The notes beneath the pieces are model-generated. The model searched no databases, was not told the origin of the DNA, and saw only the letters and a list, made by a program, of their open reading frames with translations. From positions 640,001 through 704,000 of the forward strand of contig CAVXVB010000009.1 of NCBI GenBank assembly GCA_963765205.1: a DNA stretch of 64,000 nucleotides, read 5' to 3'. The stretch comes from an uncultured Verrucomicrobiae bacterium. Its GTDB lineage: Bacteria > Verrucomicrobiota > Verrucomicrobiia > Opitutales > JABDGR01. Shown here one piece after another: positions 34,419 to 34,489 of this stretch (within the stretch, counting starts at the first letter, position 1; each line of letters begins with the position of its first letter). A program made the position numbers and the translations under genes.

Positions 34419-34489
34419 GGGCCAGCATGGTCGCTTCCTTGCACCGGAGGAAGTCTCGGAGGCGGGTTCGACTCCCGCATGGTCCACCA
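34419..34489 (+). ncRNA. Irregular tRNA-like gene lacking a D-arm (Ala-type acceptor)
   Basis: GGGCCA/TGGTCC acceptor with G3.U70, ACCA end, T-arm GCGGG-TTCGACT-CCCGC, central hairpin CTTCCT-TGCACCGG-AGGAAG. Confidence 0.65.

What the first reader, a model, noticed from the sequence alone, without database searches (positions are those of the whole stretch)
34419..34489. D-armless 71-nt tRNA-like RNA with Ala acceptor and encoded CCA
Seen: acceptor GGGCCA/TGGTCC with G3.U70, an ACCA end and a perfect T-arm. Only ~8 nt lie where the D-arm should be, followed by a 6-bp hairpin whose loop contains TGC. Established: tmRNA's tRNA-like domain also has G3.U70 and no D-stem. Here there is no tag ORF or pseudoknot region. 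Inference: a minimal alanylatable mimic (for example an SmpB, AlaRS or nuclease decoy) or a deleted tRNA-Ala.
Basis: partly seen in the sequence, partly recalled or inferred. Interest (0 to 1): 0.7.

Follow-up and report, generated by a model that had tools for sequence, protein, structure and literature searches.

The report
Damaged transposon-borne compact alanine tRNA mimic
This is a real tRNA-shaped gene carried inside a jumping gene; it belongs to a little-known family of compact, alanine-accepting tRNA look-alikes that such elements carry, but this copy has a scrambled middle and may no longer read codons.

Summary
The RNA is real. It has G3:U70, A73, an encoded CCA and a perfect T arm; a strict genome-wide scan gave no chance hits in 4.0 Mb. 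It is not an att remnant, a deleted host tRNA-Ala or a tmRNA piece.

It lies inside a 4,756-bp IS1-family element with 16-bp terminal repeats and a perfect 8-bp target duplication. A second alanine-acceptor RNA starts 13 nt behind it. Related Verrucomicrobiota elements carry such RNAs. Twelve compact relatives (71-73 nt) share a miniature D hairpin, a long central arm and almost no variable loop, with covariation; ARAGORN of 12.

The finding matches these relatives at both ends, including the mini-D start GCATGGT. It has one unpaired acceptor position, a broken mini-D and an off-register middle; the family model skips that middle (31 bits). No homologue of the middle was found.

Best reading: a probably chargeable but decaying copy of an IS-borne tRNA mimic. 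All 11 elements with a UACA-loop RNA keep one rare GTA codon in the transposase. No function was tested.

The parts
34419..34489 (+). The finding (e1): compact alanine-acceptor tRNA-like gene; 6-bp acceptor, damaged mini-D, atypical central hairpin, intact T arm, A73, CCA
34425..34433 (+). Damaged miniature D hairpin; first 7 nt identical to those of relatives L221 and L223b
34433..34454 (+). Most stable central hairpin, 8 bp with 6-nt loop; off-register against the family
34503..34575 (+). Second alanine-acceptor tRNA-like gene (e2, type I): normal D arm, odd anticodon arm, loop ending UACA; relatives in other IS1-like elements
34371..34400 (.). Long GC-rich hairpin just upstream; most related elements have one shortly before their RNA gene
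   Evidence: (z -5.9)
31897..36652 (.). IS1-family composite element, 4,756 bp, flanked by a perfect 8-bp target duplication
31897..31912 (+). Left terminal inverted repeat (16 bp)
36637..36652 (-). Right terminal inverted repeat (16 bp)
34859..35692 (+). IS1-family DDE transposase, 277 aa, intact; its only GTA codon is at residue 161
   Evidence: (PF03400 above cut-off)
34600..34800 (-). Small NikA-like ribbon-helix-helix gene between the RNAs and the transposase
   Evidence: PF21983 E 1e-5, just under cut-off
33968..34237 (+). 89-aa passenger ORF upstream on the same strand; no homologue found; weak ribbon-helix-helix lead

Best explanation
The finding is a damaged copy of a family of compact alanine-acceptor tRNA-like genes that IS1-family elements of Verrucomicrobiota carry as cargo. 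Shown: the family has a 7-bp G3:U70/A73 acceptor, a 3-5 bp D hairpin abutting it, a long central arm stacked on the T stem and almost no variable loop. Inferred: members are cut from a transcript, charged with alanine and offered to the ribosome, where the loop reads a codon that matters to the element (the rare GUA kept in the transposase, or UAA/UAG in the standard loop register), tuning transposase output. This copy keeps a chargeable top half but has an unpaired acceptor position, a broken mini-D and a rearranged middle. It most likely no longer decodes, and the intact neighbour e2 does the job.
For: Inside a bounded IS1-family element. Length 71 nt equals the family mode (7 of 12). The first 7 nt after the acceptor are identical to 2 of 12 relatives; any family 7-mer occurs at 0.0009 of genome sites. 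The 5' end equals relative L223b minus one base. Family covariation: 92% of cells paired, 12 of 19 pairs with double changes, higher than all slid controls. The family model scores e1 at 31.3 bits and skips its middle; the family-like fold costs about 8.6 kcal/mol against the best fold. No homologue of the middle. GTA at transposase 161 in 11 of 11 elements with a UACA RNA against 7 of 34 others; host GTA is 2.9% of Val codons.
Against: The T arm, G3:U70, A73 and CCA are perfect (CCA encoded in only 3 of 12 relatives) and the element looks recently inserted, which fits selection on the top half. One related element carries two well-formed compact RNAs (L223), so a second RNA need not be spare. 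Central arms differ widely in the family, and the model was built from only 6 sequences, two of them one base out of register. Three elements have GTA without a UACA RNA (L164, L173 complete between their ends; L210), no natural Ala occurs at that column in 45 transposases, and kin are not independent. No expression or charging was shown.
Confidence: 0.5

Rival explanations
1. A functional non-decoding decoy: selection acts only on the acceptor/T half, giving a chargeable RNA that binds AlaRS, EF-Tu or a tRNA-cutting toxin, while the middle drifts or forms a plain stabilising hairpin.
For: Top half intact with encoded CCA while the middle departs from the family. 8-bp central hairpin. Phage contigs hold many short G3:U70 units with unrelated middles. 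Mukai 2017 (PMC5389517, section read) found irregular tRNAs that are charged but not used in translation.
Against: The acceptor has an unpaired 7th position and the mini-D is broken. Single copy, no homologue. None of the 4 runs laid covers it (uninformative about absence).
Confidence: 0.25
2. A working extra tRNA with a compact body that decodes through an alternative fold, as tRNA-Ala(UGC) or with a GCA anticodon, like the compact phage tRNA-Ala(UGC) genes.
For: It holds the heptamer CTTGCAC also seen in compact phage tRNA-Ala(UGC) genes (26 of 102 distinct phage hits). A 5-bp stem with a 7-nt loop can be drawn (fold C).
Against: In the phage genes the loop lies 19-25 nt after the acceptor, here about 12. 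Fold C is 5 kcal/mol weaker, shows GCA rather than UGC and leaves 11 unpaired nt. The transposase has no conserved GCA codon. The host has its own tRNA-Ala(TGC).
Confidence: 0.1
3. A stand-alone mimic of the tmRNA tRNA-like domain that titrates SmpB.
For: Best Rfam hit is tmRNA, E 2.2e-5; 22 of the last 28 nt match the host tmRNA; tmRNA's domain has G3:U and a D loop without stem (PMC8778911 passages).
Against: 20.6 bits against a threshold of 47; relatives with a covarying D hairpin score likewise (17-37 bits). The host tmRNA D-loop sequence and GAC linker are not kept. Not a permuted tmRNA: the e1 3' strand pairs with the e2 5' strand at 4 of 7.
Confidence: 0.07
4. An att-site remnant or a deleted copy of a host tRNA-Ala or ssrA.
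For: Lies in a low-GC mobile region.
Against: No near-identical host match. It sits 2.5 kb inside an element bounded by inverted repeats and a target duplication. The acceptor is C4:G69 where host tRNA-Ala have G4:C69. It needs several gaps to align to host tRNA-Ala.
Confidence: 0.03

Closest known systems
allo-tRNAs and polycistrons of irregular tRNAs (Mukai et al. 2017, PMC5389517)
   Same: Irregular tRNA genes near transposable elements, some in tandem, D hairpin close to the acceptor, non-cognate or stop-reading anticodons, some with G3:U70 (section 16 and supplement rows seen).
   Different: allo-tRNAs have 8/4 or 9/3 branches, a long variable arm and mostly serine identity. Here the branch is 7/5 (6/5 in this copy), 71 nt, no long variable arm. 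GCATGGT has 0 occurrences in the supplement; only part of its rows were seen.
tmRNA tRNA-like domain (Rfam RF00023)
   Same: G3:U70, A73, CCA, T arm, reduced D region.
   Different: No tag frame or pseudoknots; D-loop sequence and GAC linker of the host tmRNA absent; relatives have a paired mini-D; below gathering score.
Bacterial tRNA-Ala (RF00005; G3:U70 identity, PMC9976931 passages)
   Same: G1:C72, G2:C71, G3:U70, A73.
   Different: No canonical D arm or 8/9 linker, no canonical anticodon arm; not called by ARAGORN or Rfam tRNA.
Compact phage tRNA-Ala(UGC) genes seen here in viral contigs
   Same: GGGC acceptor with G3:U70, small D hairpin abutting the acceptor, about 71-73 nt.
   Different: They have a 4-bp D stem (19 of 26), a centred UGC loop and are mostly ARAGORN-callable (20 of 26).
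IS1 family insertion sequences with passenger genes (group name ISMhu11 recalled, not tested)
   Same: DDE_Tnp_IS1 transposase, 16-bp inverted repeats, 8-bp target duplication, passenger ORFs.
   Different: tRNA-like RNA cargo; not found described in searches.

Membership tests
tRNA-Ala (canonical) | G3:U70 and A73 | tested here: met
tRNA-Ala (canonical) | 7-bp acceptor, D arm, 5-bp anticodon stem with NGC anticodon | tested here: not met
   6 pairs plus G.A; no D stem; no fold centres UGC in a 7-nt loop; ARAGORN 0 genes
tRNA-Ala (canonical) | Alanylation by AlaRS | not testable with these tools
   needs an in vitro assay
tmRNA | Tag reading frame and pseudoknot ring | tested here: not met
   71 nt; ARAGORN no tmRNA; Rfam alignment deletes the whole interior
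tmRNA | Permuted two-piece arrangement with the next gene | tested here: not met
   4 of 7 cross pairs; 19.1 bits against 47
tmRNA | D-loop and linker sequence as in the host tmRNA | tested here: not met
   compared with one tmRNA only
tmRNA | SmpB binding | not testable with these tools
   needs a binding assay
allo-tRNA | 8/4 or 9/3 acceptor/T branch | tested here: not met
   5-bp T stem, 6-bp acceptor
allo-tRNA | Long variable arm | tested here: not met
   7-9 unpaired nt, no stem in the best folds
allo-tRNA | Association with transposable elements | tested here: met
IS1-borne compact alanine-acceptor RNA (type II, defined here) | 71-73 nt, G3:U70, A73, at an IS1-like element | tested here: met
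IS1-borne compact alanine-acceptor RNA (type II, defined here) | Mini-D hairpin abutting the acceptor | tested here: inconclusive
   first 7 nt identical to 2 of 12 members but the 3' side is altered; only a 2-bp version can form
IS1-borne compact alanine-acceptor RNA (type II, defined here) | Long central arm stacked on the T stem with a centred 7-8 nt loop | tested here: not met
   outer 4 bp can pair but the fold is -19.3 against -27.9 and the interior is lopsided; model skips it
IS1 family element | DDE transposase, terminal inverted repeats, 8-9 bp target duplication | tested here: met

The most novel reading that the evidence does not exclude
IS1-family elements carry their own alanine-charged, structurally reduced tRNAs whose loops are matched to a rare codon kept in the transposase (or to stop codons), so the element controls or recodes its own enzyme. 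This element carries a two-RNA unit: e2 as reader and the finding as a deliberately anticodon-less, chargeable decoy that protects or tunes it.
Probability: 0.2. Interest if true: 0.85.

Novelty: new variant of a known kind. Interest (0 to 1): 0.55.

Why it matters
The copy itself may be decaying, but it exposes a family of bacterial tRNA-like genes with a miniature D arm that standard tools miss (ARAGORN of 12). They ride on insertion sequences and keep alanine identity while their loops vary. Mukai et al. left open why irregular tRNAs sit beside transposons. A single rare GTA codon held in 11 of 11 transposases with a UACA-loop RNA gives a direct test: change the codon or the loop and measure transposase output or alanine insertion. 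If true, a mobile element would regulate or recode its enzyme with a private tRNA.

Tried and rejected
Exact homologues of e1: 0 viral hits for two e1-specific patterns; 1 of 401 phylum genomes, the source itself; 1 hit in the genome collection, an unrelated archaeal tRNA; in 61 relatives only e2 and short 3'-end matches; phage and plasmid BLAST gave only T-arm or 3'-end matches, no record covering 80%; 17 of 231 genomes of a sister order matched a mini-D pattern, 2 being the known relatives and none e1-like. One search had a wrong spacer; its 7 loci were not used. Reads: 4 of 11 runs were laid; none covers e1, three cover e2 or part of it, one of them an RNA run; contigs show neither strand nor processing. 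Chimera with e2: a 12-of-13 match (30 of 10,000 shuffles) scores 19, but three host tRNA-Val score 16-17, so this is weak. Homology of e1 to the upstream hairpin of G008: 0 of 1000 with the shared spacer, 57 of 1000 without: not supported. Val-to-Ala recoding: no Ala codon at column 161 in 45 transposases. No sigma-70 promoter match nearby. The 89-aa ORF has no homologues or related viral loci. Literature searches returned no paper; others listed none on IS-borne tRNA mimics by title or abstract start.

Full report
Observation. Window 34419-34489(+) reads as a tRNA-like gene: GGGCCA pairs with TGGTCC (G3:U70), then A73 and CCA, with a 5-bp T stem and TTCGACT loop. ARAGORN finds nothing in the window. 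Rfam at gathering level finds only a neighbour at 34503-34575 (tRNA, 38 bits). The finding hits the tmRNA model at E 2.2e-5 but only 20.6 bits against 47. A strict scan for G3:U70/A73 tRNA shapes over the 4.02-Mb assembly gave the three host tRNA-Ala genes, this RNA (e1), the neighbour (e2) and one gene of a degenerate array, with no chance hit. Corrections: the 7th acceptor position is G.A, and the best central hairpin is 8 bp with a 6-nt loop (-27.9 kcal/mol) rather than the 6-bp stem (-24.1).

Not a host remnant. The host has an intact tmRNA and three tRNA-Ala. e1 shares 22 of the last 28 nt with the tmRNA but only 4 of 8 acceptor/discriminator bases, and aligns to tRNA-Ala at 40-47 of 78-83 columns. 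e1 and e2 do not form a permuted tmRNA (4 of 7 cross pairs).

Context. Both RNAs lie in a 4,756-bp element (31897-36652) with 16-bp terminal inverted repeats and a perfect 8-bp target duplication. It encodes an intact IS1-family transposase and a small NikA-like protein. The order is: 89-aa ORF, long hairpin (z -5.9), e1, 13 nt, e2, NikA-like gene on the other strand, transposase.

Family. Scanning loci of related transposases (scans 50, 66, 68, 74, 92) showed alanine-acceptor RNAs at these elements. Of 45 transposase loci, 16 have such an RNA or a glycine-acceptor variant nearby and 29 show none in the DNA fetched. Type I (e2-like) has a normal D arm and a 7-nt loop ending UACA. Type II is compact: 36-38 nt between acceptor and T arm, a mini-D hairpin abutting the acceptor, a long central arm and almost no variable loop. 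A model built from six type II RNAs found six more in 121 genomes of a sister order; 3 of these 6 lie at an IS1-like element, and 3 show no transposase in 3-5 kb. Over the 12, 92% of cells pair and 12 of 19 pairs show double changes, above all slid controls. Caveats: the alignment is fitted to the model, two rows are one base out of register, and G3:U70 in 12 of 12 is partly due to how I selected them. The six later members score 42-68 bits, but they were picked by score, and ordinary tRNA-Lys genes reach 41-43. ARAGORN of the 12. Three of them hit the tmRNA model below threshold just as e1 does (8 loci scanned), so that resemblance is a property of the shape.

Where e1 stands. It has the modal length (71 nt, 7 of 12). 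Its first 7 nt after the acceptor are identical to two members; any family 7-mer occurs at 0.0009 of genome sites. Its 5' end equals L223b minus one base. But the mini-D 3' side is altered, the model scores it at 31.3 bits and skips the 36-nt middle, and a family-like fold is -19.3 with a lopsided interior. No homologue of the middle was found; metagenome contigs were scanned only for e2. None of the four runs laid covers e1; e2 is covered by contigs of two DNA runs and one RNA run.

How the family may work (inferred). G3:U70 is the main alanine determinant (PMC9976931 passages), so charging is likely. The loop can be read two ways. In standard numbering many members show UUA or CUA; ARAGORN labels four type I genes tRNA-Stop and one Val. 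Shifted by one, the same loops show UAC followed by A. For the second reading: codon 161 of the transposase is GTA in 10 of 10 aligned elements with a UACA RNA, at 51-84% pairwise protein identity. Only 2 of 24 conserved four-fold columns are invariant, and GTA is 2.9% of host Val codons. Over all loci it is 11 of 11 against 7 of 34. Against: L164, L173 and L210 have GTA without such an RNA, no alanine codon occurs at that column, the host has tRNA-Val(TAC), and kin are not independent. No matching conserved codon was seen for e1.

Verdict on mechanism. Most likely (0.5) e1 is a decaying second copy, chargeable but not decoding. A selected top-half decoy (0.25) is not excluded: its T arm and CCA are perfect, the element is young, and L223 carries two RNAs in one element. 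A working compact tRNA (0.1), an SmpB decoy (0.07) and a host remnant (0.03) are weaker.

What is known. Mukai et al. 2017 (PMC5389517; I read part 2 of 5 of the text, section 16, passages, one supplement part and supplement search rows) describe allo-tRNAs and irregular tRNA polycistrons near transposons, with 8/4 or 9/3 branches and long variable arms; e1 fails those features. For PMC7609411, PMC8778911 and PMC9976931 I saw passages only. Searches listed no paper on IS1-borne compact alanine-acceptor RNAs; the library lacks most subscription papers. Three earlier notes of this scan report the same phenomenon in other genomes. I saw them after finding the family link and before testing the GTA codon; they are leads, not support. 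I rate the finding a new variant of a known kind, interest 0.55.

Noticed in passing
window 34503-34575 (+): Second alanine-acceptor RNA (type I). Relatives keep 4 bp + pyrimidine mismatch + 1 covarying pair + 7-nt loop ending UACA; readable as a stop-reading or a shifted Val anticodon on an alanine body.
   Followed up: partly
window 34859-35692, codon 161: A single rare GTA codon held in 11 of 11 transposases whose element has a UACA-loop RNA.
   Followed up: partly
L202:3048-3122 (+): Same slot, 334 nt before the transposase, holds a glycine-type acceptor variant with a loop ending CCCA; that transposase has ATT at 161.
   Followed up: no
L040-L157, e.g. L085, L096, L104: 26 of 102 distinct phage hits are compact tRNA-Ala(UGC) genes with a 4-bp D hairpin directly on the acceptor and a lengthened anticodon stem.
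   Followed up: partly
L046, L111, L121; L048, L093, L140, L157: Phage G3:U70 units of about 60 nt with acceptor, one hairpin and T arm but no anticodon arm, some inside tRNA arrays.
   Followed up: no
L223:902-972 and 1703-1774 (-): One IS1-like element with two compact RNAs about 800 nt apart.
   Followed up: no
G000 C9:1287772-1288740: Degenerate tRNA array in the host genome with many irregular genes, including an alanine-acceptor one that ARAGORN misses.
   Followed up: no
L159:701-980: Sequence that reads as an unannotated permuted tmRNA in Alcaligenes phage vB_Af_QDWS595.
   Followed up: no
G000 C9:1405160 and C7:262756: Further copies of the same terminal repeat, suggesting other elements of this family in the host.
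   Followed up: no
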